A DNA stretch of 35,015 bases, taken from NCBI GenBank assembly GCA_043738925.1, contig JAYUFA010000285.1, forward strand, positions 1 through 35,015, read 5' to 3'. Source of the stretch: Actinomycetota bacterium. GTDB taxonomy: Bacteria > Actinomycetota > Acidimicrobiia > Acidimicrobiales > WLNW01. Within the stretch, counting starts at the first letter, position 1. Each line of letters opens with the position of its first letter. A model generated the notes under the pieces. That model ran no database searches. It was not told the DNA's origin and was given only the letters and a program-made list of their open reading frames with translations. Shown piece by piece: positions 1,573 to 25,336 of this stretch. The position numbers and the translations under genes were made by a program.

Positions 1573-1583
1573 GGAGCAGCGCC

Positions 1584-8060: not shown

Positions 8061-8082
8061 GACAACCCAGGGAGGGCCCCTC

Positions 8083-10408: not shown

Positions 10409-10571
10409 CCGCATCACCAACCTCGAAAACCTCGCCACACGCGACCGGCCGTGTTCTTAGAAGAGTTAGCCACCGCCCAGGTGCACCATCCTTCAAAGCT
10501 CACCAGAATCCGGCAACCGCACACCCGACACCCACCGACCAGCGCAGGACAAGAGCCTTTTCGGCATCCTG

Positions 10572-11651: not shown

Positions 11652-11684
11652 GCCGACGAGCCTAGACGGTGCAACGATGGCGGC

Positions 11685-12659: not shown

Positions 12660-12912
12660 CGCGAGTCGGCGCACGACACGACGTCGGCCAAAATCCTCTT
12701 TGCCGGGCCGCAGTCGCTCAAGGACCCCTCGTGGCTGCCGATTCTGCGAGGAACCCTTCGCGTTCTAGCTGAGATGACATGACAGACACTCTTGCTTTCC
12801 CAAATCCTGACCAAACTCCGTTCACGCGGGGCGCCATATGCTCAAGAATTGAAGCACGACGTCCGTTCCCGGTCGTCACCTCGCCGAGCGGGTCAGCCGA
12901 ACTGAGGTCGCG

Positions 12913-15900
12913 TTGAACGACCACAACGAGTCTCACGACCACGCTGCGTGGCGCTGCGCGTTCATCGGCGACGAATCCCTCGCTGCGCAATGCAGCGAGA
13001 TCGCCCGCCAGCACGGCCTCGTCGTCGCGGTAATCGCTACGAACAACCCGCAGGTTCGTCGCTACGCCGAGGAGAACGACATCGCGTGCGTCGATTCCGC
13101 AGGCGATCTCGCGGCCACACTGGCGCAGCATGAGTTCGACGTGTTGCTGAGCGTCGCCAACCTGCGCGTCCTGTCCGACGCGGTGCTCTCGCTCGCGCCG
13201 GTGAACATCAACTTCCATGATGGACCGCTACCCGGCTACGGGGGTCTCAACGTAACGAGTTGGGCCATCCTCGGCGGCGAACGCCAGCACGCCATCACCT
13301 GGCACATCATGACGGCCGACGTCGACGGCGGCGAAGTCATCACGACCGAATTGATGCCGATCCTTGCCGATGACACCGCGTTCTCGCTGAACGCACGCTG
13401 CTACGAAGCTGGTGTCAGCAGCTTCGCCAGGGTCGCCGAGCAGCTCGCAGCGCGCACCCTGCGGACCACCGCGCAACCGGCAGGCGAGCGCCGCATGTTC
13501 GGCAAGTTTGCCCGACCCGCGACCTTGTTCGATCCTCAGGCACCTGCGGCCGACACCGATCGTTTGCTGCGCGCCATCTCGCTCGGGTCGCGTTATCGCA
13601 ACACATTGGGCTCGCTGCGCATCGTGCTCGACAACGCGGTGTACGTGCTCGAACGCACCCGCGTGCTCGACGCAACACCTGGCGTGCCGGCGGGTCACAT
13701 CGTCGCGATCGACGAGGACGGCGTACGCGTCGCGACCACCGAAGCGGACCTACTCCTCATCGAGGTGAGCACCGCATCAGGCTCGGTCGCATCCGTGCGC
13801 GAGATGGTCTCGGGCCGCGGTCTTGCCGCCGGTGACGCGTTTCCCACTCCCCCGTCCTTGCTGGTCGCCGCGTTGGCCGCTGCCGACAATCATCTCGCGC
13901 GCAACGAGACGTTCTGGTTGAACCGACTGGCCCGACTCGAACCCACCGATCCACCACGGGTCTCGTTGACCCCCCTCGACGAGACCTGGTCGTCGACCAA
14001 CATCACCCTGCCCGACAACACGTCGACAGATGACATCGTCGCCTCGGTGGTGCTTTGGTTAGCGCGCGTGAGCGGCACCGGCCGTGCCGCTATGAGTTAC
14101 GACGATGCCGACCTGCGTGCGTCGTGCACGAAGCTCGCACCGCTCGCGCACGGACCGGTCCTCGCGATCGACGTGCCCGATGGGCAAACCTTCGCCGAGT
14201 TGCGCTCGGCGATTGCCGCGGAGCGCGAGCAACTCGCCAAGCGAGGCCCGTTCCTACACGACGCAGTCGGTCGCGACCCGCGCACGCGCGGCAAAAGCAT
14301 TCACACCTCAACCGCGTTTTGTCTCGATACGTCCGAGCAAGCGAGCCGAGTAGGCACGCCCGATGCCACCACCCTGTTGCGCTTCGAGTACACGTCCGAT
14401 TCGCAGACCTTGACCCTGCATCATCGCAACGACGCGTTCGACGCAGCCCATGCGGCACGCGTCGGCGAACAGCTCACCACGTTGCTCGCTGCCACCAGGA
14501 CAACTGCCGAAGCGCGCGTCTACGAGTTGGCGCTGATCGGCCCCACCGAGCAGGCGCTGCTCGACGCGATGAATGCCACCGGCATCGGCTACGACATCAC
14601 CGCCACCGTCGACGAGCTCTTCCGTGCTCAAGCACGACATACGCCGGACGCGCCCGCACTCACTTTCGCGGCACGCACCCTCACCTACGCGCAGCTGCGC
14701 GACGCAACAAATCTGCTCGCCGCCAAGCTTCGCGCCGCAGGAGTTGGCCGCGGCGATCGGGTCGGCATCGCGCTGCCACGCAGCATCGACATGGTGGTCA
14801 GCGTGCTCGCCACACTCGAATGCGGCGCGGCGTACCTTCCGCTCGACCCGACCTATCCAGACGATCGCCTCGATTTCATGGTCGACGATGCGGGCATCAA
14901 AGCCCTTATCGCGCAGGGCGAGATCGCCGTGCGGCTCTCGCGGCCCGGTCTCGCACTCGTGCACCCCAACGACCCTGATGTGGCGGGCAACGAAGCGGCC
15001 CACGATCACGTCGCGAGCGACCTCGCCTACGTCATCTACACATCGGGCTCTACCGGCAAGCCCAAGGGCGTGATGCTCACGCATCGCAACGCCAACAATT
15101 TCTTTGTCGCGATGGACGCGAAGATCGACCCCGAGCATCCCGGCACGTGGCTGTCGGTCACCAGCCTGTCGTTCGACATTTCGGTGCTCGAGCTGCTGTG
15201 GACGCTCACGCGCGGCTATCACGTGGTCCTCAAGGCCGACCGTGGTATCCCCACGCACGCCACGAGCGGGGCTGTCACCGCCACGGTGCCACCCGTCAGC
15301 GCGCGACCGATGTCGCTCAGCCTCTTTTATTTCGCGGCCGGGGAATCGCAGGCCGCCGAGGGCTATCGACTACTCCTCGAAGGCGCGAAGTTCGCCGACA
15401 AGAACGGCTTCGAAGCGGTGTGGACACCCGAGCGACATTTCCATGCGTTCGGTGGCCACTATCCGAACCCATCCGTGGTGAGCGCCGCCGTTGCGGCGAT
15501 AACCGAGCACGTGCACATCCGCGCGGGCAGCGTCGTGCTGCCGCTGCATTCGCCCGTCCGCGTGGCCGAGGAATGGGCCATCGTCGACAATCTCTCGCGC
15601 GGCCGCGTCGGCATCTCCTTCGCCGCAGGTTGGCAACCGAACGACTTCGTGCTGAACCCATCGGTGTATGGCACGGCCAAGGATGCGCTGCCGTCGATGA
15701 TCGACACCGTCAAGCGGTTGTGGCGCGGCGAGACCGTTGACCTCCCCGGTCACGATGGAGTGCCGGTCCCCACGCGCACGTTGCCGCGGCCCGTGCAACC
15801 CGAGCTACCGGTGTGGCTCACGTCGGCGGGTTCTCCGTCGACTTTTGTGCAAGCCGGCACCCTCGGCACGAATCTGCTTACCCACTTGCTCGGCCAATCC

Positions 15901-17622
15901 ACCGAAGAACTCGGCGCGAACATTCGTCGCTATCGCGATGCGTGGACAGCTGCCGGTCACGATGGTCACGGCCGCATCACGCTGATGCTGCACACATTCC
16001 TCGACCGCGATGCGAACGTGGCCAAGGAATCGGCTCGACTGCCCCTGAAGGGGTATCTCGGCACTGCCGCCGGACTGCTGAAGAACATGGCGTCCGCGTT
16101 CCCCACCTTTGCTGGGTCAGGCAAGGATGCCGACGAGGCATTCAAGTCTCTCACCGAGGATGAACTCTCGCAGTTGCTCGACATGGCAGCCGATCGCTAC
16201 CTGCAAACCAGCGGGCTCTTCGGCACAGCGCACGACGCCGCTCACGTGATCGAGAAGGTGTCCGTGCTCGGGGTGGACGAGGTTGCGTGCCTGATCGACT
16301 TCGGGGTCGATACCGAGGCCGTGCTCAGCTCCTTCGAGCTGCTGCGCGAGACCAAAGACCTCATCGACGCGCATCGTGCCGCTGCCGCGAGCGCTCCATC
16401 GGCGCCAGTCGCCGAGGTGATCGACATGGCCGACGACACCGTGGCCGCGCTCAGCGCGCGCCACGGTGTCACCCACCTCCAATGCACGCCGTCACTGGCG
16501 GCCATGTTGGTGGCCGACCCCGCCGACCGGCAGGCGCTCACCACTATTCGCCACATGATGGTCGGCGGCGAAGCGTTGCCTGCGGCCCTCGCCGCCGAAC
16601 TGCGCGAGCTGTTGCCCGCGCGGTTCACCAACATGTACGGCCCGACCGAGACCACGATCTGGTCGTTGACCCACGAGATCGACCGCCCGCCCGAGGCCGC
16701 TGTACCCATCGGCCTTCCCATCGCGAACACCACGATCTTCGTGCTCGACGCGAACGGCCGGCCGTTGCCGATGGGCGTATACGGCGAGCTGCATATCGGC
16801 GGCGACGGCGTGGCCCACGGTTATCACAACCGCCCCGATCTCACCGCCGAGCGCTTCGTCGACCGGCCTGGCATGGGTCTCGTGTATGCCACGGGTGACG
16901 TCGCTCGCATCCATCCAAGCGGCACGGTCGAGTTCGCAGGCCGCGCCGACAATCAGGTCAAGATCCGCGGTCACCGCATCGAACTCGGCGAGATCGAGGC
17001 GGTGCTCGACACCCACCCCGATGTCGTGCAATCGGTGGTCGTCGCTCGCAGCGATAGCGGCACCCCGCAACTCGTCGCGTACGTGGTCACCCACGGCAAT
17101 CGCAAGGCCGACAGCGACATCCTGCGCAAGCACGTGGCCGAGGAGTTGCCCGAGATCATGGTGCCAGCCGCTGTCGTCACCTTGGCCGCCTTTCCGCTCA
17201 CCCCGAACGGCAAGGTCGATCGCAAGGCAATGCCCGCGCCGCCGACGGGCAGCGGCGTCACCTCGGCGAACAGTGTCCTGGTGCCGCCCACCGACGAACA
17301 CGAGGCCTTGGTCGCGCTGATCTGGACCGAGGAGCTCGGCCGACCCGTCAGCCGCGACGACAACTTCTTCGAGATCGGTGGTCACTCGTTGCTCGCCGTG
17401 AAGGTCTTCCGTCGCTTGAGCGAGGCCGCCGACGCACCGCTCGCGCTCACGGATATCTTTCGGTACCCGACCATTCGAACTTTTGCCGCGCACCTCGGCG
17501 CCGCGGTTGGAGGCGCCTCCGGCGGGTCAGTCGACCCGTCGTCCGCACCGACGGCCGCGCCGACCGGCACCGACCGTGGGGCGATGCGACGCCGCGCACT
17601 CAACCGCCGCGGCGGAGACTGA
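12913..17622 (+). CDS. Starter NRPS module: formyltransferase, C-domain remnant, A domain interrupted by a luciferase-like monooxygenase, and PCP
   Basis: 1569 aa. TTG start with GAGG 5 nt upstream. A-domain motifs A1-A10 are all present, an LLM domain sits between A4 and A5, and the PCP has the GGHSL motif. See the domain features below. Confidence 0.95.
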   Translation: MNDHNESHDHAAWRCAFIGDESLAAQCSEIARQHGLVVAVIATNNPQVRRYAEENDIACVDSAGDLAATLAQHEFDVLLSVANLRVLSDAVLSLAPVNINFHDGPLPGYGGLNVTSWAILGGERQHAITWHIMTADVDGGEVITTELMPILADDTAFSLNARCYEAGVSSFARVAEQLAARTLRTTAQPAGERRMFGKFARPATLFDPQAPAADTDRLLRAISLGSRYRNTLGSLRIVLDNAVYVLERTRVLDATPGVPAGHIVAIDEDGVRVATTEADLLLIEVSTASGSVASVREMVSGRGLAAGDAFPTPPSLLVAALAAADNHLARNETFWLNRLARLEPTDPPRVSLTPLDETWSSTNITLPDNTSTDDIVASVVLWLARVSGTGRAAMSYDDADLRASCTKLAPLAHGPVLAIDVPDGQTFAELRSAIAAEREQLAKRGPFLHDAVGRDPRTRGKSIHTSTAFCLDTSEQASRVGTPDATTLLRFEYTSDSQTLTLHHRNDAFDAAHAARVGEQLTTLLAATRTTAEARVYELALIGPTEQALLDAMNATGIGYDITATVDELFRAQARHTPDAPALTFAARTLTYAQLRDATNLLAAKLRAAGVGRGDRVGIALPRSIDMVVSVLATLECGAAYLPLDPTYPDDRLDFMVDDAGIKALIAQGEIAVRLSRPGLALVHPNDPDVAGNEAAHDHVASDLAYVIYTSGSTGKPKGVMLTHRNANNFFVAMDAKIDPEHPGTWLSVTSLSFDISVLELLWTLTRGYHVVLKADRGIPTHATSGAVTATVPPVSARPMSLSLFYFAAGESQAAEGYRLLLEGAKFADKNGFEAVWTPERHFHAFGGHYPNPSVVSAAVAAITEHVHIRAGSVVLPLHSPVRVAEEWAIVDNLSRGRVGISFAAGWQPNDFVLNPSVYGTAKDALPSMIDTVKRLWRGETVDLPGHDGVPVPTRTLPRPVQPELPVWLTSAGSPSTFVQAGTLGTNLLTHLLGQSTEELGANIRRYRDAWTAAGHDGHGRITLMLHTFLDRDANVAKESARLPLKGYLGTAAGLLKNMASAFPTFAGSGKDADEAFKSLTEDELSQLLDMAADRYLQTSGLFGTAHDAAHVIEKVSVLGVDEVACLIDFGVDTEAVLSSFELLRETKDLIDAHRAAAASAPSAPVAEVIDMADDTVAALSARHGVTHLQCTPSLAAMLVADPADRQALTTIRHMMVGGEALPAALAAELRELLPARFTNMYGPTETTIWSLTHEIDRPPEAAVPIGLPIANTTIFVLDANGRPLPMGVYGELHIGGDGVAHGYHNRPDLTAERFVDRPGMGLVYATGDVARIHPSGTVEFAGRADNQVKIRGHRIELGEIEAVLDTHPDVVQSVVVARSDSGTPQLVAYVVTHGNRKADSDILRKHVAEELPEIMVPAAVVTLAAFPLTPNGKVDRKAMPAPPTGSGVTSANSVLVPPTDEHEALVALIWTEELGRPVSRDDNFFEIGGHSLLAVKVFRRLSEAADAPLALTDIFRYPTIRTFAAHLGAAVGGASGGSVDPSSAPTAAPTGTDRGAMRRRALNRRGGD
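12949..13785 (+). other. Formyltransferase (F) domain: Fmt-like N-terminal catalytic part plus C-terminal OB-like part (approximate bounds)
   Basis: INFHDGPLPGYGG corresponds to the N-x-H-x-S-LLP-x-x-RG motif, with the His codon at 13216-13218. ADVDGGEVI corresponds to the catalytic Asp motif. The layout resembles the F domains of LgrA and OzmO. Confidence 0.8.
13906..14580 (+). other. Condensation-domain C-terminal half without the HHxxxDG catalytic motif (remnant or linker)
   Basis: ETFWLNRLARLEP...LPD...DIVASVVLWLARVSG resembles the post-C3 region of C domains. No HHxxxDG was found anywhere upstream of the A domain. Confidence 0.5.
14596..17235 (+). other. Adenylation domain, interrupted; hand-derived specificity code DILQMGMIWK (Gly-like)
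   Basis: A3 is LAYVIYTSGSTGKPKG and A4 is SFDISVLE (Asp codon 15175-15177), followed by the insertion. After it come A5 NMYGPTETT (16630), A6 GELHIGGDGVAHGY, A7 YATGD, A8 GRADNQVKIRGHRIELGEIE and A10 NGKVDRK. The code was obtained by manual alignment to GrsA-PheA positions 235-517. Confidence 0.85.
15310..16350 (+). other. Luciferase-like (FMN-dependent) monooxygenase domain inserted between A4 and A5 (MtaG/MelG MOx-type)
   Basis: MSLSLFYFAAG...YRLLLEGAKFADKNGFEAVWTPERHFHAFGGHYPNPSV...RAGSVVLPLHSPVRVAEEWAIVDNLSRGRVGISFAAGWQPNDF is the typical natural-product LLM-domain signature. Confidence 0.85.
17301..17495 (+). other. Peptidyl carrier protein (T) domain
   Basis: FFEIGGHSLLAVKV, with the phosphopantetheinyl Ser codon at 17386-17388. 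Confidence 0.9.
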
Positions 17623-17667
17623 GCTCACGATGCGTCGATCGACCGAAACCTTGAGGACACGCACCGC

Positions 17668-20600
17668 ATGAACGCCGACGAGCTGTCCGAATCCGACATC
17701 GCGATCGTTGGCATGTCGGGGCGCTTCCCCGGCGCGCCCGATGTCGATGCGTTGTGGACTCGGGTGCGCAACGGTGACGACTGCCTGGTCGACCTCGACC
17801 CCAACGATCTGATCGCCGCCGGTTTGCCGGCGTCACTCGTGCAGGCAACCGACTACGTCAAGCGTTCTGGCATTCTCGAAGGCGTCGACACCTTCGACGC
17901 CGGGTTCTTCGGAATCGGCGCACGCGACGCGTCGATCATGGACCCGCAACATCGACACTTCTACGAGATCGCATGGGAGACCATCGAGTCCGCCGGTTAC
18001 GTCCCCGAGCGATTCGACGGCGCAATCGGCGTGTTCGCCGGTTGCGGTATGAACACCTACCTCGTCAACAACCTGCTCACGAACCCCCAACTCGTCGATC
18101 AGGTGGGCTGGTTCCTCCTGCGCCACACCGCCAACGACAAAGACTTCCTGGCGACCGGCGTTTCCTACCGACTCGATTTGCGCGGCCCATCGATCAGCGT
18201 GCAGACCGCATGCTCCACATCGCTCGTCGCGATCCATCTCGCCGCACAGAGCCTGCTGTCGTTCGAGTGCGACATGGCCGTCGCCGGCGGCGTCACCATC
18301 GAAGTGCCCCACGCCCGCGGCTACCGCTACCACGAAGGCGAGATCCTCGCGCCCGACGGGATGTGCCGTGCGTTCGACGCCCGTTCCGGCGGCACGGTGC
18401 TTGCCAGCGGCGCCGGCGCCGTCGCGCTGCGACGCTTGACCGACGCCTACCGTGACGGTGATCCCATCCTCGCGGTCGTGAAGGGCAGCGCCGTCAACAA
18501 CGACGGCAGTCGCAAGGTGAGCTATCTCGCGCCGAGTGTCGACGGCCACGCCGACGTCGTCAAAGAAGCGCTCGCGGTTGCCGGGTTGTCGGCACGTGAC
18601 ATCACGCTGCTCGAGGCGCACGGCACCGGCACAGCCGTCGGCGATCCGATCGAGGTCGCGGCCCTTACCGAAGGGTTCCGCGCGTCGACGACCGACACCG
18701 GGTTCTGCCGCCTCGTGTCCACCAAGCCGAATATCGGTCACCTCGATACCGCGGCCGGTGTCGCCAGCATCATCAAGGTTGTTCAGGCGCTGCGTCACCA
18801 GACGCTGCCACCGATTGCCAACCACACCGCGCCGAGCCCGCTGCTCGACATCGAGCGCACGCCCTTCGTGCTGTCGGGCCATGCTTCGCCGTGGCCGACC
18901 ACCGGCACGGCCCCGCGTCGTGCGGGGGTCAGCTCGCTCGGCGTAGGCGGTACGAACGCTCACGTCATCGTCGAGGAGGCACCTGAGTACGCGCCCACAC
19001 CCGCGGCGGCGCCCGAGCAAGTACTCGCGTTGTCGGGTCGCTCGCCGAAAGCCGTCGACGATGCGGTAACCCGCCTCGCCGACTTCCTCGAAGCGCACCC
19101 CGACACGAACCTCGCCGACGTCGCGTTCACACTTGCCACCGGCCGACGCGCCATGACGCACCGCCGCGTACTCACGGTCACCGATACCACGAGCGCACCG
19201 ACGCAACTGCGAGAGGCCGACCGGCGCCGCAACCAGCAGGGTCAAACAGCCGACACGGCGCCCGGCGTCGCATTCTTGTTTCCCGGAGGCGGCGCGCAGT
19301 ACGTCGGCATGGGGGCCGGGCTCGACGAGCGCTTTGACGTTTACCACCAGGTGATGCGTGACGGCATCGCGCTCACCAGGCAACTGGCCAACGGTCTCGA
19401 CCTTGCGCCACTCCTTACGCCGGGCGGAGACGACGACGCGTTGCGTCAAGCCGACGCGTCGCTACCCGCGGTGTTTATCACCACGATCGCGCTCGCGAAG
19501 CAGTGGATGGCCTGGGGTGTCAGACCTCGTACGTTCGTCGGCCACAGCCTGGGCGAGTACGCAGCCGCACACCTCGCTGGTGTGCTCACGTTCAAGGATG
19601 CGCTCTCACTCGTGGTGGTGCGCGCACAGCTGATGGCGCGCGTCGGAGGCGCCGGTGCCGCGATGCTCGCCGTGCCATTGTCCTCGGAGCAGGTCCGAGC
19701 GATCCTGCCGGAGAGCATCTCGCTTGCCACCGTGAACGCTCACGACGAATGCGTCGTATCCGGTCACGCCGTCGACGTGTTCGCGTTCGACGAGCAACTT
19801 GCCGCCGACGGAATCACCTGTACACGCATCCCGCTCGCTGCCGCGGCGCACAGCTCCTTGCTCGATCCGGTACTCGCCGAGTTCCTCGAGGCTGTGCGGG
19901 GTGTCACGCTGTCGGCGCCCCAAATGCCCTACCTGTCAAACCTCACCGGCACGTGGATCACCACCGAGCAGGCCACAGATCCGCAGTACTGGGTCGACCA
20001 TCTGCGTAACACCGTGCGGTTCGCCGATTGTCTGGCCACCGCGCTCGCCGACGGCCCACTCGCGCTCGTCGAGATCGGGCCCGGGCAATCGCTGTCGTCG
20101 TACGCACGGCGCCAGGAGACCAACGCCCCCGTAATCGTGGTGGCCTCACTCCGTCACCCCAACGACAAGACCGACGACACGGTGCACTCGTTGCAGGCGG
20201 TCGCAAAGCTTTGGACCGTCGGCGTGCCCGTCGCGCTCGAGCAGTTCAGCGGTACTGGTCGACGACGCTTACGATTGCCGACCTACCCCTTTCAACGCGA
20301 ACGCCATTGGATCGAACCCGGCAATGGCTACAGCACCACCGAAGGTGCGTCGGTGGCCGCGACCCGGCCCGTGGGCATTGCACGGGGGCACGAGGCCAAG
20401 CCGAGCGGGCCGGCGCGTATCGACAACCTTGACGACTGGTTCTGGGAACCGTCGTGGGTCGAACGCGAGTTGCAGTCCACGCCGCGCGCCACCGTTGGTC
20501 CGTGGTTACTCGTCGGCGATGACGCCGATCCGCTCGTTGGCGCCATCTCGGTCGAACTGCGCCACCGCGGCGAGATCGTGCGCACCGCAAGCACCTTCGA

Positions 20601-23600
20601 TCCCGATCGCTTGGGCCCCAGCCGCGCCATTGCCGTCATCGGCGCCGCGGGCAATGACGCCACCGGCCTCGATCGTGCCGCAGCACGCTGGTTGGGCGAC
20701 ACCGTGTCAGCCGCACGAACGTTGGGCAACCACGCCGATGGTGTTGCCCGCCTCGCGGTGGTCACACGTGGCGCAACAGCGGCAGGCGGCATGGCCACAC
20801 GGCCCGTCGACGCGCTCGCGCTCGGCACGGTGCTCGTCGCACCAAAAGAGTATCCCGATCTCACCACCGTGCTCGTCGATCTCGACGCCGCCGCGGGTTC
20901 TGAAGGAGCGCGTGCCGCGGTCGACGAACTGCTCGCCGCCACCGACCGCGTCGTTGCCCGCCGCGGCAAAGCCCGCCTCGTGCCCGAACTCTCGCGACTC
21001 GCCCTGCCGGCCCCGCGCGCCGACACCGTCACCTTCCGCAAGGGTGGCATCTACGTCGTGACCGGCGCGCTCGGCGGTGTCGGTCACGTGCTGGCGAAAC
21101 ATCTCGCGACCGCGCACGACGCGTCGCTTGTCGTGGTGTCGTCGACCACGGTCCCTGAGGGCGACCAACGCGACCGCTGGCTGGCGCGTCACGGCCACGA
21201 CGACGCGACCTCACGTCGCATCCGACGACTCGTCGAGCTCGAAACGCTGGCCACCAAGGTCGTCACCGTCACCGCTGACCTCGCCGATCCTGTCGCTCTA
21301 CGCCACGCGCTTGACGAAGCCGAGCGCCGTATTGGTCGCATCGACGGCGCCGTGCACGCTGCCGGCCACCTGCAAGATCGACTCATCGAAATGGTCACCC
21401 CCGAGGACCACGAAGCCGTCATCGGTCCCAAGGCCCGCGCCGCGATTGTGTTGGCCGACGAGCTGGCGCGACGTGGCGCCGAGCTGCTCGTGCTGGTCAG
21501 CTCGACCAGCACGACGCTCGCTCCCGGCGGACAAACAAGCTATGTCGCGGCGAACGCCGTACTCGATGCTCTTGCAGGCACGCGTGGACGGCTGCGGGTC
21601 ACGACGATGGACTTCGGTGTGTGGGCCGGCACGGGCATGGCGGCCCAAGCTGCGCGCAAGCTCCGCCTTGGCATCGAGGATGGCACCCACATCATTCATC
21701 CGGTGTTGGCCGAGATGCAGGTCGGCCGCGACGGCACGCTTGCGTTCATCGGCCGCGTGGATGCCGCGCATGACTGGGTCGTCAACGAACATCGCACCGA
21801 GACTGGCGTCGCGGTGTTGCCGGGCACCGGCCACATTGAGCTGATGCTGGCTGCGCTGCACTATGGCAAGGTCGGCCGGGCCGGACTCCGCAACGTTGCT
21901 TTGCTCGAACCACTCATCGTGCCCGAGTCGAGCACGGTCACACTCAAGGTCACGGTCACGCCCGCAGATACCGCCGGCGTCCGGTTTGTGCGGATCGACA
22001 GCGACCGCGGCGGCGGCCGCGTCTGGCACACCCACAGCGAGGCGGAGGTCGTTGCCATCGATCCGTCGCTTGCGCTCGCACCACTCGATCTCGACGCGCT
22101 CGGCCGGGCATGCGGTCTCGACGGCATCGATGTGCTCGCCGGCCCTCGCCGCCACCTACGCCTCGGTCCTCGGTGGGACGCCGTGGTCGACGCGGCACTC
22201 GGTGACGGCGAGATCTTCGGCCGCCTCGCGCTCGCCGATGCATTCGACGACGACGCGCACGCCTGGACTGTACATCCCGCGTTGTTCGACGTGGCCACCG
22301 CCTTCGGTGTTCGCCTCGCCGCTTCCGACGATGAAGAGGCGCTGTACGTGCCTGTCGGATACGACAGCGTCACGTCGATCGCGCCGCTGCCGTCGCATGT
22401 GGTGGTGCACGCAACGCGACATCCCTCGACAACCGATCAGATACTTCGCGTCGATCTCACGTTGGCAGACATAGAGGGGAACGTCGCGCTCCGCGTCAGT
22501 GGTCTCAGCTTGCGCGCGATGCGTGACCCCGGCATGTTCGCGGCAGCGCCGGATGACGATGCTCCAGCCACGCCGCGGGCGATGGCGCCGCTGTTGGCGC
22601 TCGCCGAGGACCTCGGCATTCGTGAGGCCGAAGGCGCGTTGCTCGTCGAGCGCCTACTGGCCAGCGGTCGGCCCCGTCTGATCGCGTCAAGCGTCGATCT
22701 CGACTCGTTACGAGACGACGAAGACGCCGACAGCGCCGCGAGCAAACCGAGCGACCTCGCTGCGCCTGCCGGCAGCGTCGTCGACGCGCTCACGGTCATG
22801 TGGCGTGACCTGCTCGGCGTCGACAACGTCTCGCCCACCGACGATTTCTTCGATCTTGGCGGACATTCGCTCATCGCGATCCGCTTGATGGCACGCGTTC
22901 ACCGCGAGCTCGGCGTGCGCTTTCAGCTCGCGACACTGTTCGAAGCTCCCACCATCGACAAGCTTGCCGCACTCGTGCGGGTCGAGCGCCCGACCATCGA
23001 CGCCACGCTCGCCCAAGTCGCAGCCGACACGCCCACACCGGCCGAGGCCGCGTCAGCCGCGTCGAGCCGAGCCAGTTGTCTCGTGCCGATCCGTGCGGCC
23101 GGTCACAAAGAGCCGTTCTTCATCGTGCATGGCGCGGGCGGCAACGTGCTCTACCTGTGGAGCCTCGTGCGTGCTCTTCCCGAAGGCCGACCGGTATACG
23201 GGTTCCAGGCCCACGGCATCGATGGCATCGGACAACCTGACCAGACCATCGAAGCCATGGCCGCGCGCTACGTCGAGGCATTGGTTGCGTTCAAGCCCGG
23301 ACCGTATGTGCTCGGCGGCTACTCCGGCGGCGGCATTGTCGCGTTCGAGATGACGAAGCAGCTGCAGGCGCTGGGCCAACAGGTGCAATACCTGGTGCTC
23401 TTCGATTCCATCGGCTCCCAATACCTGGGCCCGCGGTTCGGGTCGCGCCTCAAGAACGTCACGCAGAACCTCGGACGCGAAGGCGTACGCGAGCTCTGGC
23501 CTTTCCTCGATGAGTTGGCACGCAAGCGCTATCGCCGCATCGTCCCGTCACCGGCAGCCAAACAAGCGGCCCGCGAGGTCCAGTCGCGCGAGATGGGCTA

Positions 23601-23880
23601 TTCCGACGTAACCGACTTCGGGATTGTCGATCTTGAGGATCACTTCGCCGAAGTCGTGCATCGCTACCGGCTTGGCAGCTACAACGTCGACTATGCGCTG
23701 CTGAAAGCCGACGAGGTGTGGCCGGTGTTCCCGAGGGACTACTACTGGTCGCGCTACGTGACCGGCTCCATCGACGTCGTGTCGGTGCCCGGCAATCACC
23801 ACACGATGTTCGCTCCCGAGAACGCACCGATCCTGGCGGCCAAGCTCACACGTCTCCTTGACGAGCACGACCCGACATGA
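17668..23880 (+). CDS. Type I polyketide synthase: KS-AT-KR-DH-carrier-TE
   Basis: 2070 aa. ATG at 17668 with GAGGA upstream, 45 nt after the NRPS stop. Domain motifs are listed in the features below. Confidence 0.95.
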   Translation: MNADELSESDIAIVGMSGRFPGAPDVDALWTRVRNGDDCLVDLDPNDLIAAGLPASLVQATDYVKRSGILEGVDTFDAGFFGIGARDASIMDPQHRHFYEIAWETIESAGYVPERFDGAIGVFAGCGMNTYLVNNLLTNPQLVDQVGWFLLRHTANDKDFLATGVSYRLDLRGPSISVQTACSTSLVAIHLAAQSLLSFECDMAVAGGVTIEVPHARGYRYHEGEILAPDGMCRAFDARSGGTVLASGAGAVALRRLTDAYRDGDPILAVVKGSAVNNDGSRKVSYLAPSVDGHADVVKEALAVAGLSARDITLLEAHGTGTAVGDPIEVAALTEGFRASTTDTGFCRLVSTKPNIGHLDTAAGVASIIKVVQALRHQTLPPIANHTAPSPLLDIERTPFVLSGHASPWPTTGTAPRRAGVSSLGVGGTNAHVIVEEAPEYAPTPAAAPEQVLALSGRSPKAVDDAVTRLADFLEAHPDTNLADVAFTLATGRRAMTHRRVLTVTDTTSAPTQLREADRRRNQQGQTADTAPGVAFLFPGGGAQYVGMGAGLDERFDVYHQVMRDGIALTRQLANGLDLAPLLTPGGDDDALRQADASLPAVFITTIALAKQWMAWGVRPRTFVGHSLGEYAAAHLAGVLTFKDALSLVVVRAQLMARVGGAGAAMLAVPLSSEQVRAILPESISLATVNAHDECVVSGHAVDVFAFDEQLAADGITCTRIPLAAAAHSSLLDPVLAEFLEAVRGVTLSAPQMPYLSNLTGTWITTEQATDPQYWVDHLRNTVRFADCLATALADGPLALVEIGPGQSLSSYARRQETNAPVIVVASLRHPNDKTDDTVHSLQAVAKLWTVGVPVALEQFSGTGRRRLRLPTYPFQRERHWIEPGNGYSTTEGASVAATRPVGIARGHEAKPSGPARIDNLDDWFWEPSWVERELQSTPRATVGPWLLVGDDADPLVGAISVELRHRGEIVRTASTFDPDRLGPSRAIAVIGAAGNDATGLDRAAARWLGDTVSAARTLGNHADGVARLAVVTRGATAAGGMATRPVDALALGTVLVAPKEYPDLTTVLVDLDAAAGSEGARAAVDELLAATDRVVARRGKARLVPELSRLALPAPRADTVTFRKGGIYVVTGALGGVGHVLAKHLATAHDASLVVVSSTTVPEGDQRDRWLARHGHDDATSRRIRRLVELETLATKVVTVTADLADPVALRHALDEAERRIGRIDGAVHAAGHLQDRLIEMVTPEDHEAVIGPKARAAIVLADELARRGAELLVLVSSTSTTLAPGGQTSYVAANAVLDALAGTRGRLRVTTMDFGVWAGTGMAAQAARKLRLGIEDGTHIIHPVLAEMQVGRDGTLAFIGRVDAAHDWVVNEHRTETGVAVLPGTGHIELMLAALHYGKVGRAGLRNVALLEPLIVPESSTVTLKVTVTPADTAGVRFVRIDSDRGGGRVWHTHSEAEVVAIDPSLALAPLDLDALGRACGLDGIDVLAGPRRHLRLGPRWDAVVDAALGDGEIFGRLALADAFDDDAHAWTVHPALFDVATAFGVRLAASDDEEALYVPVGYDSVTSIAPLPSHVVVHATRHPSTTDQILRVDLTLADIEGNVALRVSGLSLRAMRDPGMFAAAPDDDAPATPRAMAPLLALAEDLGIREAEGALLVERLLASGRPRLIASSVDLDSLRDDEDADSAASKPSDLAAPAGSVVDALTVMWRDLLGVDNVSPTDDFFDLGGHSLIAIRLMARVHRELGVRFQLATLFEAPTIDKLAALVRVERPTIDATLAQVAADTPTPAEAASAASSRASCLVPIRAAGHKEPFFIVHGAGGNVLYLWSLVRALPEGRPVYGFQAHGIDGIGQPDQTIEAMAARYVEALVAFKPGPYVLGGYSGGGIVAFEMTKQLQALGQQVQYLVLFDSIGSQYLGPRFGSRLKNVTQNLGREGVRELWPFLDELARKRYRRIVPSPAAKQAAREVQSREMGYSDVTDFGIVDLEDHFAEVVHRYRLGSYNVDYALLKADEVWPVFPRDYYWSRYVTGSIDVVSVPGNHHTMFAPENAPILAAKLTRLLDEHDPT
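17695..18980 (+). other. Ketosynthase domain
   Basis: DIAIVGMSGRFPG. Active-site TACSTSLVAIHLA with the Cys codon at 18211-18213. EAHGTGTAVGD, KPNIGHLDTAAG and GTNAHVIVEE are also present. Confidence 0.95.
19267..20170 (+). other. Acyltransferase domain with an atypical specificity motif
   Basis: FLFPGGGAQY. GHSLGEY with the Ser codon at 19546-19548. The specificity position reads AAAHS rather than HAFHS (malonyl) or YASHS (methylmalonyl). Confidence 0.9.
20500..21645 (+). other. Ketoreductase domain (structural plus catalytic subdomains), located before the DH
   Basis: Rossmann motif VVTGALGGVGHVLAKHL (21061-21084) and catalytic region SSTSTTLAPGGQTSYVAANAVLD. Confidence 0.85.
21697..22525 (+). 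other. PKS-type dehydratase (double hot-dog) domain, located after the KR
   Basis: HPVLAE. NEHRTETGVAVLPGTGHIE with the His codon at 21790-21792. LGPRW occupies the YGPxF position, and HPALFDVATAF corresponds to the D-xxx-Q/H motif. Confidence 0.8.
22777..22980 (+). other. Carrier domain with a PCP-type motif (GGHSL) rather than the ACP-type (GxDSL)
   Basis: DDFFDLGGHSLIAIRLMARV, with the Ser codon at 22867-22869. Confidence 0.85.
23080..23877 (+). other. Type I thioesterase domain
   Basis: FFIVHGAGGN. GGYSGGG with the Ser codon at 23323-23325. A distal His lies in PGNHHTMF. Confidence 0.85.
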
Positions 23881-24638
23881 CCGCTGCCGACCTCGATGGG
23901 CAGCTCGACGCGCCCGCCTTGGTTGCTGCGGCCCGACTCCTCGCCGAACGCACTGGCCTCACCATTGCGCTCGTACCGATCGCTGACGCTGGCCGAGCCG
24001 CAGACAGCGTTGGCGGCCAACACGCGGCCGGCAAGGCATTGGGTGCAAGCGGTTTCCCCTATGGCTTCGACGGCCGGCACCGCGACGATGGTCGGCCGAT
24101 TTGGCCGGCCGAGTACACGGGCTCGATCGCGCATGCGGGCGCGATCGCGGCAGCGGCGGTTCTGGCGTTACCTCGGCGCGCCGCCGTGAGGCAACCAGCG
24201 CGGGGCGTGGGTATCGACATCGAGATCGAATGCGCGCTGCCCGCGGCCGACGCTACGGCCGTGCTTGGACATGGAGAACGCGCGCTCGTCATCGGCGCTG
24301 ATCGGCCCGACGCGCTCGCGACCATGCTGTGGAGCGCGAAAGAGGCGGCATACAAGGCGTGGTGCGAAGCGCTTGACGGCCACATCGGCACCGTCGATCC
24401 GGTCGACATCCAAATCGAGATCGGCGCCCCGGTTGACGGTTTACAACCGATTCTGGCGCGACCGCGGGGCGCGCTGGCAACAACGCTGGCGGGCTTCGAC
24501 CCGGCGGTGGGATGGTGCGCCGCCGCCGACGGCTATGTGTTGGTGGCCGTGTCTGTCGGCGCAGCGCCCCGCCACGGCGACGACGGCATTGCCAGCGAAG
24601 CAATCACGAGCCCAAGCGCCGCGAACGCCACGACATAG
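23877..24638 (+). CDS. 4'-phosphopantetheinyl transferase (Sfp/EntD type)
   Basis: ATGA overlap with the PKS stop. Motifs PIWPAEYTGSIAHAG, GIDIE and WSAKEAAYKAW. Confidence 0.85.
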   Translation: MTAADLDGQLDAPALVAAARLLAERTGLTIALVPIADAGRAADSVGGQHAAGKALGASGFPYGFDGRHRDDGRPIWPAEYTGSIAHAGAIAAAAVLALPRRAAVRQPARGVGIDIEIECALPAADATAVLGHGERALVIGADRPDALATMLWSAKEAAYKAWCEALDGHIGTVDPVDIQIEIGAPVDGLQPILARPRGALATTLAGFDPAVGWCAAADGYVLVAVSVGAAPRHGDDGIASEAITSPSAANATT

Positions 24639-25051
24639 AGACCACCGCCGACGACAAGCGGCTCGCTGGTGAGCTGATCGTGGGCATGGGTGATGCTCCA
24701 TCGGTTGATCAGGTACAAGCCGAACACCACGAGACCGCACGCGGCAATCGCCAACCGCAGCGCGAGATGGCGCACGCCGACCGCGACCGCGCCGCCGAGG
24801 CCGGCGCCGACCGTGACCAGCCCGATGACGATCCACCCGTTGACGTGATCGACACCGCGACCCGACACACCGTCGGCGTAGTGCAGCCACGGCGCGAACG
24901 AGCCGAACACGCCGGCCATCACCGCGGCGGTCGCGAACGCGAGGGTCGCCCAGACGCGTTTGTCACGCGGCTGATGCCGCGGTGGCGAACCGATGGAGAC
25001 CCACCCATCGGGCGGCAACGCAGTGGCCGCGATCGGCGGCGCCAACGGCAT
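24533..25051 (-). CDS. Small hypothetical membrane protein (about 4 TM helices)
   Basis: Lower part of the 24533..25267 ORF; the upper part is occupied by the tRNA gene. Start candidates are the ATGs at 25051 and 25096. Its 3' end overlaps the PPTase 3' end convergently by 106 nt. Confidence 0.45.
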   Translation of the reverse strand: MPLAPPIAATALPPDGWVSIGSPPRHQPRDKRVWATLAFATAAVMAGVFGSFAPWLHYADGVSGRGVDHVNGWIVIGLVTVGAGLGGAVAVGVRHLALRLAIAACGLVVFGLYLINRWSITHAHDQLTSEPLVVGGGLYVVAFAALGLVIASLAMPSSPWRGAAPTDTATNT

Positions 25052-25123
25052 CACGAAACGGTCACGTCCCTGCTCAACCACTTGGTGTCCCTGCATGCGG
25101 TCGCGAGCGACCGATTGGCGGAG

Positions 25124-25204
25124 AGCGCCGGGTGGGATTTGAACCCACGAAGCTTTCGCAACGGCTTTGCAGGCCGCTCCCTTTGGCCACTCGGGCACCG
25201 ACGC
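25124..25204 (-). tRNA. tRNA with anticodon GCA (Cys codons) and discriminator U73, on a class II (long variable region) tRNA-Tyr-like body; CCA not encoded
   Basis: Hand-folded sequence: GCGTCGG-TG-CCCG-AGTGGCCAAA-GGGA-GCGGC-CTGCAAA-GCCGT-TGCGAAAGCTTC-GTGGG-TTCAAAT-CCCAC-CCGGCGC-T.
- The acceptor stem is 7 bp with one G-U pair.
- U8, A14, G18G19 and the T-loop TTCAAAT are canonical.
- The anticodon loop is C-U-GCA-A-A.
- The variable region is 12 nt. Confidence 0.8.
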
Positions 25205-25336
25205 ATAAAGGCCCATCCGCTGAGCCGTCATGAGGATAGCCCGACGTCGCCTGCATCCAGCACGCACCTGCGAGGGTCGTCGCTTCTCGACAACGTGCTC
25301 ACGGGTCGGTGCGGCTCGTATGCCAGAGTGGGCCCT

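What the first reader, a model, noticed from the sequence alone, without database searches (positions are those of the whole stretch)
12913..24638. Compact, self-sufficient three-gene NRPS-PKS locus with an unusual combination of domains
The three genes are tightly linked. The NRPS and PKS are 45 nt apart, and the PKS and PPTase share an ATGA overlap.

Domain content:
- NRPS: F, C-remnant, A(LLM), T
- PKS: KS, AT, KR, DH, T, TE
- A dedicated Sfp/EntD-type PPTase

Each element is known on its own. F domains occur in LgrA and OzmO. A-embedded monooxygenases occur in MtaG and MelG. KR-before-DH order occurs in PUFA and enediyne synthases. I do not recognise this particular assembly from any characterised pathway.

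The minimal predicted chemistry is an N-formyl-glycyl starter, possibly alpha-hydroxylated. It would be extended by one malonyl unit, or several if the PKS is iterative, with keto-reduction and dehydration, then released by the TE. No tailoring, cyclodehydratase or regulator genes lie inside the locus, so the product could be a small formamido-enoate or polyenoate.
Basis: partly seen in the sequence, partly recalled or inferred. Interest (0 to 1): 0.8.

Follow-up and report, generated by a model that had tools for sequence, protein, structure and literature searches.

The report
Conserved three-gene formyl-glycine NRPS-PKS cassette
The three genes are real, intact and form a compact enzyme assembly line that should build a small formylated, glycine-derived unsaturated acid; it is one copy of a large, uncharacterised gene-cassette family found in many bacterial phyla, where it often sits among genes for cell-surface sugar polymers.

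Summary
Genes at 12913-17622, 17668-23880 and 23877-24638 encode F-C'-A(LLM)-T, KS-AT-psiKR-KR-DH-T-TE and an Sfp-type PPTase. The 45-nt gap and the ATGA overlap are as stated.

The "C-remnant" is the C-terminal lobe of a condensation domain, shown by both profile and fold searches. The A domain carries a glycine code. Every catalytic motif I checked is present.

The locus is not unique. The NRPS-PKS pair recurs in Acidimicrobiia, Planctomycetota, Myxococcota, Burkholderiales, Sphingomonadales, Cellvibrionaceae and Acidobacteriota. All motifs are conserved in these copies.

About half of the related loci lie inside exopolysaccharide, glycosyltransferase or exosortase gene clusters, sometimes with 4-nt overlaps to glycosyltransferase genes. 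Some also carry methylmalonyl-CoA mutase or a flavin reductase. The window's own copy has none of these neighbours.

The DH is of the modular Cur type, not PUFA or enediyne type. The T-TE is NRPS-like. The AT motif ([AV]AAHS) is non-canonical, so the extender may not be malonyl.

I found no characterised member. The most likely chemistry is: N-formylglycyl starter, alpha-hydroxylation, one extension, reduction, dehydration, then TE release. The product is unknown. I rate this a new variant of a known kind, of moderate-to-good interest.

The parts
12913..17622 (+). NRPS gene, 1569 aa, with the build F-C'(half condensation domain)-A(LLM inserted)-T
   Evidence: ORF; Pfam and NCBIfam matches; identical protein P0001 called on ENA contig k141_4470654. 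The TTG start has GAGG 6 nt upstream.
12913..13857 (+). Formyltransferase (F) domain, residues ~1-315, with N-terminal and C-terminal (OB-like) subdomains
   Evidence: Formyl_trans_N E=3.9e-15. The best solved relatives are the ArnA formyltransferase (residues 71-315, E=3e-12), Fmt and GART; LgrA F does not match at E<0.01. The catalytic N and H (NFHDGPLP) and D (VDGG) are present and conserved in 113-114 of 114 homologues.
13870..14607 (+). C-terminal lobe of a condensation domain (residues ~320-565). The N-lobe and the HHxxxDG motif are absent.
   Evidence: Profile A1 against PDB sequences: Txo2 E=4e-23, Txo1 7e-21, EntF 9e-13. The AlphaFold2 model (pLDDT 89.1) matches only condensation domains in Foldseek.
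14620..15243 (+). Adenylation domain, N-terminal part (motifs A1-A4; residues 570-777)
   Evidence: AMP-binding profile positions 1-242. The FDISVL motif gives code positions 235, 236 and 239 = D, I, L.
15316..16350 (+). FMN-dependent luciferase-like monooxygenase (MOx), inserted in the A domain between A4 and A5 (residues 802-1146)
   Evidence: TIGR04020 MupA/Atu3671 family, 465 bits against a cutoff of 244. Bac_luciferase E=2e-41. The closest solved structure is PuwE, 6ket, E=1e-104.
16429..17232 (+). Adenylation domain, C-terminal part (motifs A5-A10; residues 1173-1440)
   Evidence: AMP-binding plus AMP-binding_C. The remaining code residues are Q, M, G, M, I, W, K, giving DILQMGMIWK, a glycine-type code.
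17314..17496 (+). Thiolation (PCP) domain; the phosphopantetheine-carrying Ser is residue 1492 (GGHS)
   Evidence: PP-binding E=8.5e-12. The Ser is conserved in 114 of 114 homologues.
17668..23880 (+). PKS gene, 2070 aa, with the build KS-AT-psiKR-KR-DH-T-TE
   Evidence: Orthologues share 36-59% identity over about 2000 aligned residues in 13 other loci.
17692..18972 (+). Ketosynthase (Cys183, His, His)
   Evidence: ketoacyl-synt and Ketoacyl-synt_C. The TACSTS, HGTGT and NIGH motifs are conserved in 14 of 14 orthologues.
19273..20196 (+). Acyltransferase (GHSLG, Ser627) with the non-canonical specificity motif AAAHS
   Evidence: Acyl_transf_1 E=9e-47. The motif is [AVI]AAHS in all 16 orthologues.
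20431..21627 (+). Ketoreductase: structural subdomain (from DDWFWEPSW, residue 922) plus catalytic subdomain (residues 1127-1320)
   Evidence: KR E=4.8e-35. The TGALGGVG, HAAGxLxD (B-type Asp) and S...Y..N motifs are conserved.
21697..22527 (+). Dehydratase, lying downstream of the KR
   Evidence: PKS_DH_N plus PS-DH. The best solved relatives are the CurK, CurH and CurF DHs. EH(x)4G(x)4P and HPALxD are conserved in 14 of 14 orthologues (x3 in two of them).
22786..22977 (+). Carrier domain with an NRPS-type GGHS motif (Ser1734)
   Evidence: PP-binding E=1e-16. The best solved relatives are the PCPs of PvdL, SrfA-C, TycC and LgrA. The motif is conserved.
23113..23847 (+). Type I thioesterase (GYSGG with Ser1886, Asp, His)
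   Evidence: Thioesterase E=5e-21. Closest to the TEs of AB3403, EntF and Pks13. The triad is conserved; the Novosphingobium orthologue has Cys in place of Ser.
23877..24638 (+). Sfp-type 4'-phosphopantetheinyl transferase, overlapping the PKS stop (ATGA)
   Evidence: 4PPT_N plus ACPS. Nearest families are Npt, PptT and EntD. The GIDIE and WSAKEAAYK motifs are present. A PPTase is adjacent to the pair in L005, L015, L082, L084 and L085.

Best explanation
This is a functional three-gene assembly line, one member of a widespread orphan cassette family. Each step below is marked as shown or inferred.

1. The Sfp-type PPTase primes the two carrier domains. This is inferred from family membership and motifs.
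2. The A domain loads glycine on T1. This is inferred from a canonical Gly code that is nearly invariant (DILQxGxxWK) across 114 homologues.
3. The N-terminal ArnA/Fmt-like formyltransferase N-formylates Gly-S-T1. In this protein it occupies the place of the donor (N-terminal) lobe of a former condensation domain. The acceptor lobe of that domain is retained, presumably as the platform against the A domain and the docking site for T1. The formylation step is inferred by analogy with the LgrA, OzmO and CongA F domains.
4. The FMN-dependent monooxygenase inserted between A4 and A5 hydroxylates the glycyl alpha-carbon of the N-acyl thioester. This is inferred by analogy with MtaG and MelG, and its timing is unknown.
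5. The KS takes this starter. The AT supplies one extender, either malonyl or an alpha-substituted unit such as methylmalonyl. The B-type KR and the downstream Cur-type DH then give an enoyl (or enamide) thioester on an NRPS-type carrier.
6. The NRPS-type TE releases the product.

The product should be a C4-C5 N-formyl-amino(hydroxy)-enoic acid, or something that follows from its hemiaminal: a 5-formamido- or 5-hydroxy-butenolide, or a 4-oxo-enoate after loss of formamide. In many relatives the cassette is wired into polysaccharide loci, so the acyl unit may end up on, or act with, a surface glycan. In this window it stands alone.
For: - Domain content and order are established.
- The Gly code, the F catalytic N/H/D and the T Ser are conserved in 113-114 of 114 homologues.
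- KS CHH, AT Ser, the KR NADPH and Tyr motifs, DH His and Asp, the carrier Ser and the TE triad are conserved in 14 orthologues that share only 36-59% identity, and in 2 more.
- The PPTase motifs are present.
- The LLM scores above the TIGR04020 cutoff.
- A flavin reductase lies immediately after the PKS in two Cellvibrionaceae loci, which fits a working FMNH2-dependent MOx.
- The genes are translationally coupled.
- The NRPS-PKS pair is syntenic in about 22 loci from at least 6 phyla.
- Polysaccharide context: GT2, GT4, WecG, Bac_transf, Wzy, flippase, Wzz or exosortase genes lie within 10 kb in about 12 of 22 loci. There are 4-nt overlaps PKS-GT2-PPTase in L085 and PKS-WecG in L089. One GT2 is 50-64% identical between the Novosphingobium and Planctomycetota loci.
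Against: - No product or enzyme activity is known for any member, so every chemical step is by analogy.
- The F domain has no detectable sequence similarity to the one biochemically proven F domain, that of LgrA.
- The role and timing of the MOx on a formyl-glycyl substrate are unprecedented. A Nannocystaceae member has lost the LLM yet keeps the PKS partner, so hydroxylation is not indispensable to the cassette.
- The AT specificity motif is non-canonical.
- Single-round versus iterative use of the PKS cannot be read from sequence.
- The window has no glycan genes in its 35 kb.
Confidence: 0.5

Rival explanations
1. The enzymes are the same, but the single PKS module works iteratively. It would make an N-formyl-amino polyenoate (a pigment-like or lipid-like chain) rather than a C4-C5 acid.
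For: There is one module plus a TE and no other PKS gene in any of about 22 loci. The KR-then-DH order is shared with iterative PUFA and enediyne synthases (the comparison is from general knowledge). The locations in polysaccharide and surface loci would also suit a lipid-like anchor.
Against: The DH is closest to modular Cur DHs, and the KR has the psiKR typical of modular KS-AT-KR modules. There is no ACP between AT and KR and no tandem ACPs. Nothing in the sequence indicates chain-length control.
Confidence: 0.15
2. Formylation plus alpha-hydroxylation is a traceless way to turn glycine into a glyoxylyl starter. The N-formyl hemiaminal would collapse, losing formamide as MtaG/MelG lose glyoxylate. 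The PKS would then make a 4-oxo-2-enoate or its cyclic 5-hydroxybutenolide, a reactive electrophile or signal.
For: The C'-A(MOx)-T part is 44-50% identical to C-A(MOx)-T modules of other NRPSs (loci L013-L025). The LLM is a full TIGR04020 member. F supplies the N-acyl group that the MtaG/MelG-type reaction needs (analogy, from general knowledge).
Against: N-acyl-alpha-hydroxyglycines are fairly stable without a lyase (general knowledge). The LLM-less member (L090) keeps the F domain and the PKS, which makes little sense if formyl were only a leaving-group handle. There is no direct evidence.
Confidence: 0.15
3. This is an OzmO/CongA-type formylglycine loading system that makes a 5-substituted oxazole acid.
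For: The logic is the same: F-A-T with glycine feeding a PKS. CongA is 1210 aa, which equals the size of F-C'-A-T without the LLM (PMC4504003).
Against: In oxazolomycin and conglobatin, oxazole formation is attributed to the adjacent OzmP or CongE (PMC4504003). No third gene is conserved next to the pair in about 22 loci. The window neighbours are a PF04199 cyclase-family hydrolase, DUF2510, an alpha/beta hydrolase and a flavokinase. The MOx and the KR-DH set are not part of that route.
Confidence: 0.05
4. The cluster is decaying or silent and has no product.
For: No regulator or transporter lies inside the three genes. The window copy has lost, or never had, the glycan context of its relatives.
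Against: Both giant ORFs are uninterrupted. All catalytic residues are present and conserved at 36-59% identity across phyla. Close relatives at 91%, 78% and 76% identity keep full length.
Confidence: 0.03

Closest known systems
OzmO (oxazolomycin), CongA (conglobatin) and RizA (rhizopodin): F-A-PCP formylglycine loading modules that feed a PKS
   Same: An N-terminal formyltransferase domain, a glycine-specific A domain and a PCP, handing over to a KS. CongA's F domain is only 23% identical to LgrA's (PMC4504003), in line with the lack of an LgrA F match here. CongA's 1210 aa equals the size of the F-C'-A-T build without the LLM.
   Different: Here an LLM monooxygenase is inserted in the A domain. 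No OzmP/CongE-type cyclodehydratase accompanies the pair. The PKS is a single KS-AT-KR-DH-T-TE protein rather than a long assembly line.
MtaG (myxothiazol) and MelG (melithiazol): C-A(MOx)-PCP-TE terminal modules
   Same: A glycine-specific A domain split between A4 and A5 by a TIGR04020-type luciferase-like monooxygenase. The Ramlibacter orthologue is even annotated 'MelG-like'. The C'-A(MOx)-T part is 44-50% identical to such modules in many genomes.
   Different: MtaG and MelG are terminal modules with a complete C domain. They use the hydroxylation to release a primary amide. Here the donor half of the C domain is replaced by a formyltransferase, and the module starts a polyketide rather than ending one.
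LgrA initiation module (linear gramicidin), F-A-PCP
   Same: It is the best overall solved relative of the NRPS through its A and PCP parts (657 bits). It is also the biochemical precedent for formylation of a carrier-bound aminoacyl group.
   Different: The F domain here does not match LgrA's F at E<0.01; it is closer to ArnA and Fmt and keeps the C-terminal subdomain. LgrA has no half-C domain between F and A and no MOx.
Modular cis-AT PKS modules (CurL KS-AT; CurK, CurH and CurF DHs; DEBS KS-AT-KR)
   Same: KS-AT is closest to 8xju/8xjy, CurL and DEBS. psiKR plus KR resemble KS-AT-KR modules. The DH is closest to the Cur DHs.
   Different: The DH lies after the KR instead of before it. The carrier has an NRPS-type GGHS motif and, with the TE, is closest to NRPS T-TE pairs. 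The AT has [AVI]AAHS rather than HAFH or YASH.
[quoted passage not shown]
   Same: Small-molecule or acyl-unit biosynthetic genes embedded in exopolysaccharide or exosortase loci.
   Different: The enzymes are entirely different (NRPS-PKS rather than N-acyl synthase). The link here is by gene neighbourhood only, and it is absent from the window itself.

Membership tests
NRPS formylation (F) initiation module, LgrA type | Formyl_trans_N fold with the catalytic Asn, His and Asp | tested here: met
   Pfam E=3.9e-15. N/H/D are present and conserved in 113-114 of 114 homologues.
NRPS formylation (F) initiation module, LgrA type | Sequence relatedness to the LgrA F domain, and F fused directly to A | tested here: not met
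   Residues 1-570 give no LgrA match at E<0.01; the best matches are ArnA, Fmt and GART. A 250-residue half-C domain lies between F and A.
NRPS formylation (F) initiation module, LgrA type | Formyl transfer from formyl-THF to the carrier-bound aminoacyl group | not testable with these tools
   This needs an enzyme assay.
OzmO/CongA-type formylglycine loading module | F-A-PCP protein with a glycine-specific A domain, upstream of a KS | tested here: met
   The KS gene starts 45 nt downstream.
OzmO/CongA-type formylglycine loading module | Adjacent OzmP/CongE-type cyclodehydratase gene | tested here: inconclusive
   No third gene is conserved across about 22 loci, and no ATP-dependent cyclodehydratase-like Pfam family appears among the neighbours. 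No OzmP or CongE sequence was available for a direct search.
OzmO/CongA-type formylglycine loading module | Sequence similarity to OzmO or CongA | not tested
   The sequences were not retrievable. The only evidence is the size match: CongA is 1210 aa, against about 1170-1210 aa for LLM-less relatives.
MtaG/MelG-type A domain with embedded monooxygenase | TIGR04020 (MupA/Atu3671) LLM scoring above the curated cutoff | tested here: met
   465.1 bits against a cutoff of 244.45.
MtaG/MelG-type A domain with embedded monooxygenase | Insertion between A4 and A5 of a Gly-specific A domain | tested here: met
   The AMP-binding profile breaks at position 242. Code positions 235-239 lie before the LLM and positions 278-331 after it. 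The code is DILQMGMIWK.
MtaG/MelG-type A domain with embedded monooxygenase | Complete upstream C domain and terminal position (PCP-TE) for amide release | tested here: not met
   Only the C-terminal lobe is present and there is no HHxxxDG. The T domain is followed by a PKS, not a TE.
Condensation domain | Both lobes, with the HHxxxDG active site | tested here: not met
   The profile and fold matches cover only about residues 190/250 to the end of C domains. The N-terminal 315 residues are a formyltransferase.
Canonical modular cis-AT type I PKS module | KS Cys-His-His, AT GHSxG, KR Tyr and NADPH motif | tested here: met
Canonical modular cis-AT type I PKS module | Domain order KS-AT-DH-KR-ACP, with an ACP of the GxDS type and an AT HAFH or YASH motif | tested here: not met
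   The order is KS-AT-psiKR-KR-DH-T. The carrier is GGHS and closest to PCPs. The AT motif is [AVI]AAHS.
PUFA- or enediyne-type iterative PKS | KR placed before DH | tested here: met
   KR is at residues 1127-1320 and DH at 1344-1620.
PUFA- or enediyne-type iterative PKS | ACP(s) between AT and KR; DH related to PUFA or PKSE dehydratases | tested here: not met
   There is no PP-binding domain between AT and KR. That stretch is a psiKR. The TIGR02813 PfaA match covers KS-AT only. The DH's best solved relatives are CurK, CurH, CurF and PksJ.
Sfp-type (group II) PPTase | 4PPT_N plus ACPS domains, with GxDxE and WxxKEAxxK motifs | tested here: met
   GIDIE and WSAKEAAYK are present. The nearest NCBIfam models are Npt, PptT and EntD, all below their cutoffs.

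The most novel reading that the evidence does not exclude
The F-C'-A(MOx)-T plus KS-AT-KR-DH-T-TE pair may be a cross-phylum, horizontally mobile 'glycan accessory' assembly line. On this reading it builds a formyl-(hydroxy)glycine-derived acyl unit that decorates, caps or primes an exopolysaccharide or an exosortase-associated surface structure. That would be a class of surface-polymer substituent made by NRPS-PKS chemistry and not described so far. The window's stand-alone copy would be a derived or relocated version of it.
Probability: 0.3. Interest if true: 0.75.

Novelty: new variant of a known kind. Interest (0 to 1): 0.58.

Why it matters
The cassette family is large. More than 230 clusters at 90% identity of about 1550-aa F-C'-A(LLM)-T proteins were listed in two searches. 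A further 1157 clusters at 50% identity match the F-C' head at E<=1e-30. The family spans at least six phyla, including abundant but poorly cultured marine and soil groups (Ilumatobacteraceae, Planctomycetota).

I found no product or function for any member. That makes it a compact, testable target of 11.7 kb and three genes, with culturable carriers such as Ramlibacter tataouinensis, Novosphingobium, Myxococcus/Pyxidicoccus and Agarilytica-like strains.

It could teach three things:
- How a formyltransferase can replace half of a condensation domain.
- What an A-embedded monooxygenase does to a starter unit.
- Whether assembly-line chemistry contributes to bacterial surface polysaccharides.

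If the product turns out to be an ordinary small acid, the finding remains a useful annotation of a common orphan gene pair.

Tried and rejected
- **Literature.** Nine full-text searches on combinations of domains, organisms and contexts found no description of this cassette. The one paper containing all of 'exosortase', 'polyketide synthase' and 'formyltransferase' (PMC8776678) describes a different PKS cluster with stand-alone enzymes.
- **Link to OzmO/CongA by sequence.** Neither cluster look-ups of the ~1200-aa relatives nor a database search with the LLM-less member P0199 returned named OzmO or CongA proteins. The P0199 search showed instead that P0199's nearest relatives all carry the LLM, so P0199 looks like a secondary loss.
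- **PDB entries 8xju and 8xjz** (best KS-AT match, and an NRPS chain). Chain 8xjz_C has neither the F nor the LLM region, so it is not the same system.
- **Genomic-island test.** A tRNA lies 485 nt downstream of the cassette, but no direct repeat of its 3' end exists between 9500 and 25400. GC content shows no step.
- **Promoter and terminator scan.** The counts were no higher than in shuffled sequence.
- **Rfam.** Only the tRNA was found.
- **All-ORF clustering of the loci** was swamped by spurious high-GC ORFs. I replaced it with gene calls from the source records and targeted tblastn.
- **Window neighbours as cassette members.** The PF04199 'cyclase', the DUF2510 protein and the alpha/beta hydrolase are syntenic only in the closest relatives (L001, L002), or not at all. 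I do not count them as part of the cassette.
- **L014 (Planctomycetota)** has the NRPS without an adjacent PKS, and its neighbours were uninformative.

Full report
**1. The observation**

The window (about 65% G+C) carries three co-directional ORFs:
- 12913-17622, 1569 aa.
- 17668-23880, 2070 aa.
- 23877-24638, 253 aa.

There are 45 nt between the NRPS stop (17620-17622) and the PKS ATG, with a GAGGA Shine-Dalgarno-like motif in between. The PKS and PPTase share an ATGA overlap. The NRPS TTG start has GAGG 6 nt upstream and follows a 253-nt intergenic gap. The same three genes are called on the source contig, ENA k141_4470654, 61.9 kb.

**2. Domain anatomy of the NRPS**

Pfam and NCBIfam give:
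- Formyl_trans_N at residues 61-173, plus a weak Formyl_trans_C match.
- AMP-binding at 570-777.
- A luciferase-like monooxygenase at 802-1146. It scores 465 bits against TIGR04020 (MupA/Atu3671 family), whose cutoff is 244.
- The rest of the A domain at 1173-1440.
- PP-binding at 1468-1528.

The N-terminal 315 residues align with the ArnA formyltransferase domain, including its C-terminal subdomain (E=3e-12), and with Fmt and GART. They do not align with the F domain of LgrA at E<0.01.

A single sequence barely touches the Pfam Condensation model (E=0.054). A 17-sequence profile (A1) matches the C-terminal lobes of condensation domains: Txo2 residues 254-477 at E=4e-23, Txo1 at 7e-21 and EntF at 9e-13. 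An AlphaFold2 model of the stretch (pLDDT 89) retrieves only condensation domains from the PDB, at probability 1.0 and TM about 0.6. There is no N-lobe and no HHxxxDG. The formyltransferase therefore sits where the donor half of a C domain used to be, and the acceptor half remains.

The ten specificity residues read DILQMGMIWK. Positions 235-239 lie before the monooxygenase and positions 278-331 after it. The insertion is therefore between motifs A4 and A5, the site known for MtaG and MelG (my knowledge of those proteins).

**3. Domain anatomy of the PKS**

The order is KS, AT, a KR structural subdomain starting at DDWFWEPSW (residue 922), catalytic KR, DH, carrier, TE. The KR-before-DH order is real.
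- The DH's closest solved relatives are the modular CurK, CurH and CurF dehydratases.
- The carrier has an NRPS-type GGHS motif.
- The carrier-TE pair is closest to the NRPS T-TE pairs of AB3403, PvdL, SrfA-C and EntF.
- KS-AT is closest to 8xju/8xjy, CurL and DEBS.
- The PfaA model matches KS-AT only.

The protein is thus a mosaic of modular-PKS and NRPS parts. It is not a PUFA- or enediyne-type synthase.

**4. Integrity**

Across 114 full-length NRPS homologues:
- The Gly code is DILQ[MLFA]G[MLV][IV]WK in all of them.
- The F-domain Asn, His and Asp are kept in 113-114.
- The T-domain Ser is kept in 114.

Across 14 PKS orthologues that share only 36-59% identity with the window protein, the following are all conserved, and also in two further loci:
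- KS Cys-His-His.
- AT GHSxG.
- The KR NADPH site, the B-type Asp and Ser...Tyr..Asn.
- The DH EH(x)3-4G(x)4P and HPALxD motifs.
- The carrier Ser.
- The TE Ser (Cys in one orthologue), Asp and His.

The PPTase has GIDIE and WSAKEAAYK. The cluster is not decaying. One feature departs from the textbook: the AT specificity motif is [AVI]AAHS in every orthologue, neither HAFH nor YASH.

**5. Distribution**

The window protein has a 100% match (its own contig) and relatives at 91%, 78%, 76% identity and below. The 120 best hits almost all have the same Pfam string and a length near 1550 aa. They are named from Ilumatobacteraceae, Acidimicrobiales, Planctomycetota, Myxococcus/Pyxidicoccus, Ramlibacter, Caenimonas and Novosphingobium.

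The GTDB scan places the closest genomes in Acidimicrobiales and Ilumatobacteraceae MAGs, so the window is from that lineage.

A search of 1.84 billion representatives with residues 1-575 gave 1157 clusters at E<=1e-30. Most of the best 150 align across both the F and the C' parts.

A second database search, seeded with an LLM-less relative, listed another ~115 distinct LLM-containing proteins of about 1550 aa. These come from Planctomycetota, Myxococcota, Longimicrobiales and Cellvibrionaceae. The LLM-less forms of about 1170-1210 aa therefore look like secondary losses, at least for P0199. That member still sits in front of an orthologous 2163-aa PKS.

**6. Gene neighbourhood**

The NRPS-PKS pair is adjacent in about 22 loci. 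The order varies: NRPS-PKS in most loci, and PKS-hydrolase-NRPS in Myxococcus. A PPTase is adjacent in L005, L015, L082, L084 and L085 and in the window.

No other gene is universally conserved. About 12 of the 22 loci, however, have polysaccharide genes within 10 kb:

| Locus | Organism | Neighbouring genes |
|---|---|---|
| L085 | Novosphingobium | WecG, Wzy, flippase, GT4 and two GT2 genes upstream; PKS-GT2-PPTase with 4-nt overlaps |
| L089 | Ilumatobacter | PKS-WecG with a 4-nt overlap, then two Bac_transf genes; FkbH plus ACP upstream |
| L088, L026 | Planctomycetota | GT1, GT2, GT4, Wzy, flippase |
| L087 | Caenimonas | Bac_transf |
| L006, L010, L011, L018, L039 | Other Ilumatobacteraceae | WecG, GT2, GT4, Bac_transf |
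| L091, L092 | Cellvibrionaceae | Wzz, exosortase EpsH/EpsI and a TPR protein upstream |

One GT2 is 50-64% identical between the Novosphingobium and Planctomycetota loci. The GTs resemble EPS-pathway families.

Other recurrent neighbours are:
- Methylmalonyl-CoA mutase, epimerase and MeaB in L088, L091 and L092.
- A flavin reductase directly after the PKS in L091 and L092.

The window itself has none of these neighbours. Its neighbours are nitrite/nitrate-reductase-like genes, an MFS transporter, TetR, DUF2510, a PF04199 hydrolase, an alpha/beta hydrolase, a flavokinase, an amidohydrolase and VanY.

**7. Most likely mechanism**

The steps, and which of them are shown or inferred, are set out under the best explanation. 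What the sequence shows:
- Domain identities and their order.
- A glycine-type code.
- Intact active sites.
- Strong purifying selection.
- Operon-like linkage.

What is inferred by analogy:
- Formylation of Gly-S-T (LgrA biochemistry; OzmO and CongA proposals, PMC4504003).
- Alpha-hydroxylation by the embedded LLM (MtaG and MelG).
- One round of extension, reduction and dehydration.
- TE release.

The retained C-lobe plausibly keeps the C:A platform and the acceptor-carrier docking site. This is inference only.

The extender unit is open. The small third residue of the xAAH motif and the mutase neighbours point to methylmalonyl or another alpha-substituted unit in at least some lineages. The product cannot be named. 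The candidates are 4-formamido-(4-hydroxy)-2-enoates or 3-enoates, a 5-substituted butenolide, or a 4-oxo-enoate after formamide loss.

**8. Comparison with known systems**

The NRPS combines two known ideas:
- The formylglycine loading module of OzmO, CongA and RizA.
- The MOx-interrupted glycine A domain of MtaG and MelG.

As far as I could find, this combination has not been described. It also shows that the F domain is grafted onto half a C domain. CongA's size of 1210 aa suggests that it shares the F-C'-A-T build, but I could not test this. The locus fails defining features of each family I considered, as listed in the membership table. It works like a hybrid of them rather than being a plain member of any.

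**9. Verdict**

This is a real, intact and compact NRPS-PKS-PPTase locus. Its claim of uniqueness is wrong, because the cassette is common across phyla. Its claim of novelty stands in the sense that the family is uncharacterised.

The recurring polysaccharide and exosortase context is the most interesting lead, although it does not apply to this window's copy. I rate the finding a new variant of a known kind, with interest of about 0.58.

Noticed in passing
window 25123-25204 (- strand): An 82-nt tRNA with anticodon GCA (ARAGORN calls it tRNA-Cys; Rfam scores it 54.6 bits). By eye it has discriminator U73 and a CUGCAAA anticodon loop, which are Cys identity elements. It also has a ~12-nt variable arm and a D-arm (CCCGAGUGGCCAAAGGGA) like bacterial class-II tRNA-Tyr, which is an unusual shape for a tRNA-Cys. 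It lies 485 nt downstream of the PPTase stop with its 3' end facing the cassette. No repeat of its 3' end was found at 9500-25400, so there is no att-site evidence for a genomic island.
   Followed up: partly
L085 21079-22071 (Novosphingobium); L089 19424-20452 (Ilumatobacter): Glycosyltransferase genes overlap the PKS stop codon by 4 nt. In L085 the next gene, the PPTase, overlaps the GT2 in the same way. The NRPS-PKS pair is therefore translationally coupled to glycan genes in two phyla.
   Followed up: partly
L091 8390-9798 and 21403-21894; L092 6221-9836 and 21512-22006; L088 21453-24313: Methylmalonyl-CoA mutase, MeaB and epimerase genes lie directly next to the pair in three loci. A flavin reductase gene lies directly after the PKS in two. 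These hint at a methylmalonyl extender and at FMNH2 supply for the embedded monooxygenase.
   Followed up: partly
L089 817-2723 (Ilumatobacter); L087 6850-9851 (Caenimonas): FkbH_N plus a small ACP (L089), and an acyl-CoA-dehydrogenase-like gene plus an ACP and a small ACPS-type PPTase (L087), lie upstream of the pair. These resemble parts of a glycerate-derived (hydroxy- or methoxymalonyl-ACP) extender pathway, or of exosortase-associated acyl-modification sets. Not examined further.
   Followed up: no
L085 PKS (Novosphingobium), TE nucleophile column of the alignment: The TE nucleophile motif reads GLCAG, with Cys in place of the Ser found in the other 13 orthologues.
   Followed up: no
window 26043-26447 (- strand): A stand-alone 134-aa flavokinase (riboflavin kinase, PF01687) gene lies 1.4 kb downstream of the PPTase, next to an Amidohydro_2 gene. 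It could be unrelated, or it could supply FMN for the embedded monooxygenase.
   Followed up: no
window 9644-9700: A short GCGAAG hexanucleotide tandem run lies near the 3' end of the MFS transporter gene (8083-9729).
   Followed up: no
window 378-9729: An assimilatory nitrite/nitrate-reduction-like block: NirB-type reductase, a Rieske NirD-like protein (4070-4420), a fused 4Fe-4S/DmsC-like protein, a molybdopterin oxidoreductase and an MFS transporter, followed by TetR. It is unrelated to the cassette and marks the left flank as primary metabolism.
   Followed up: no
window 11685-12659 (+); also L001 and L002: A PF04199 'putative cyclase' gene (the kynurenine-formamidase / isatin-hydrolase family) lies 253 nt upstream of the NRPS. 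It is syntenic in the two closest relatives only. A formamidase-type hydrolase beside a formylating NRPS is suggestive. Other loci have an amidase (L084, L015) or a polysaccharide deacetylase (L082) in that position, but no orthologue is shared across the family.
   Followed up: partly
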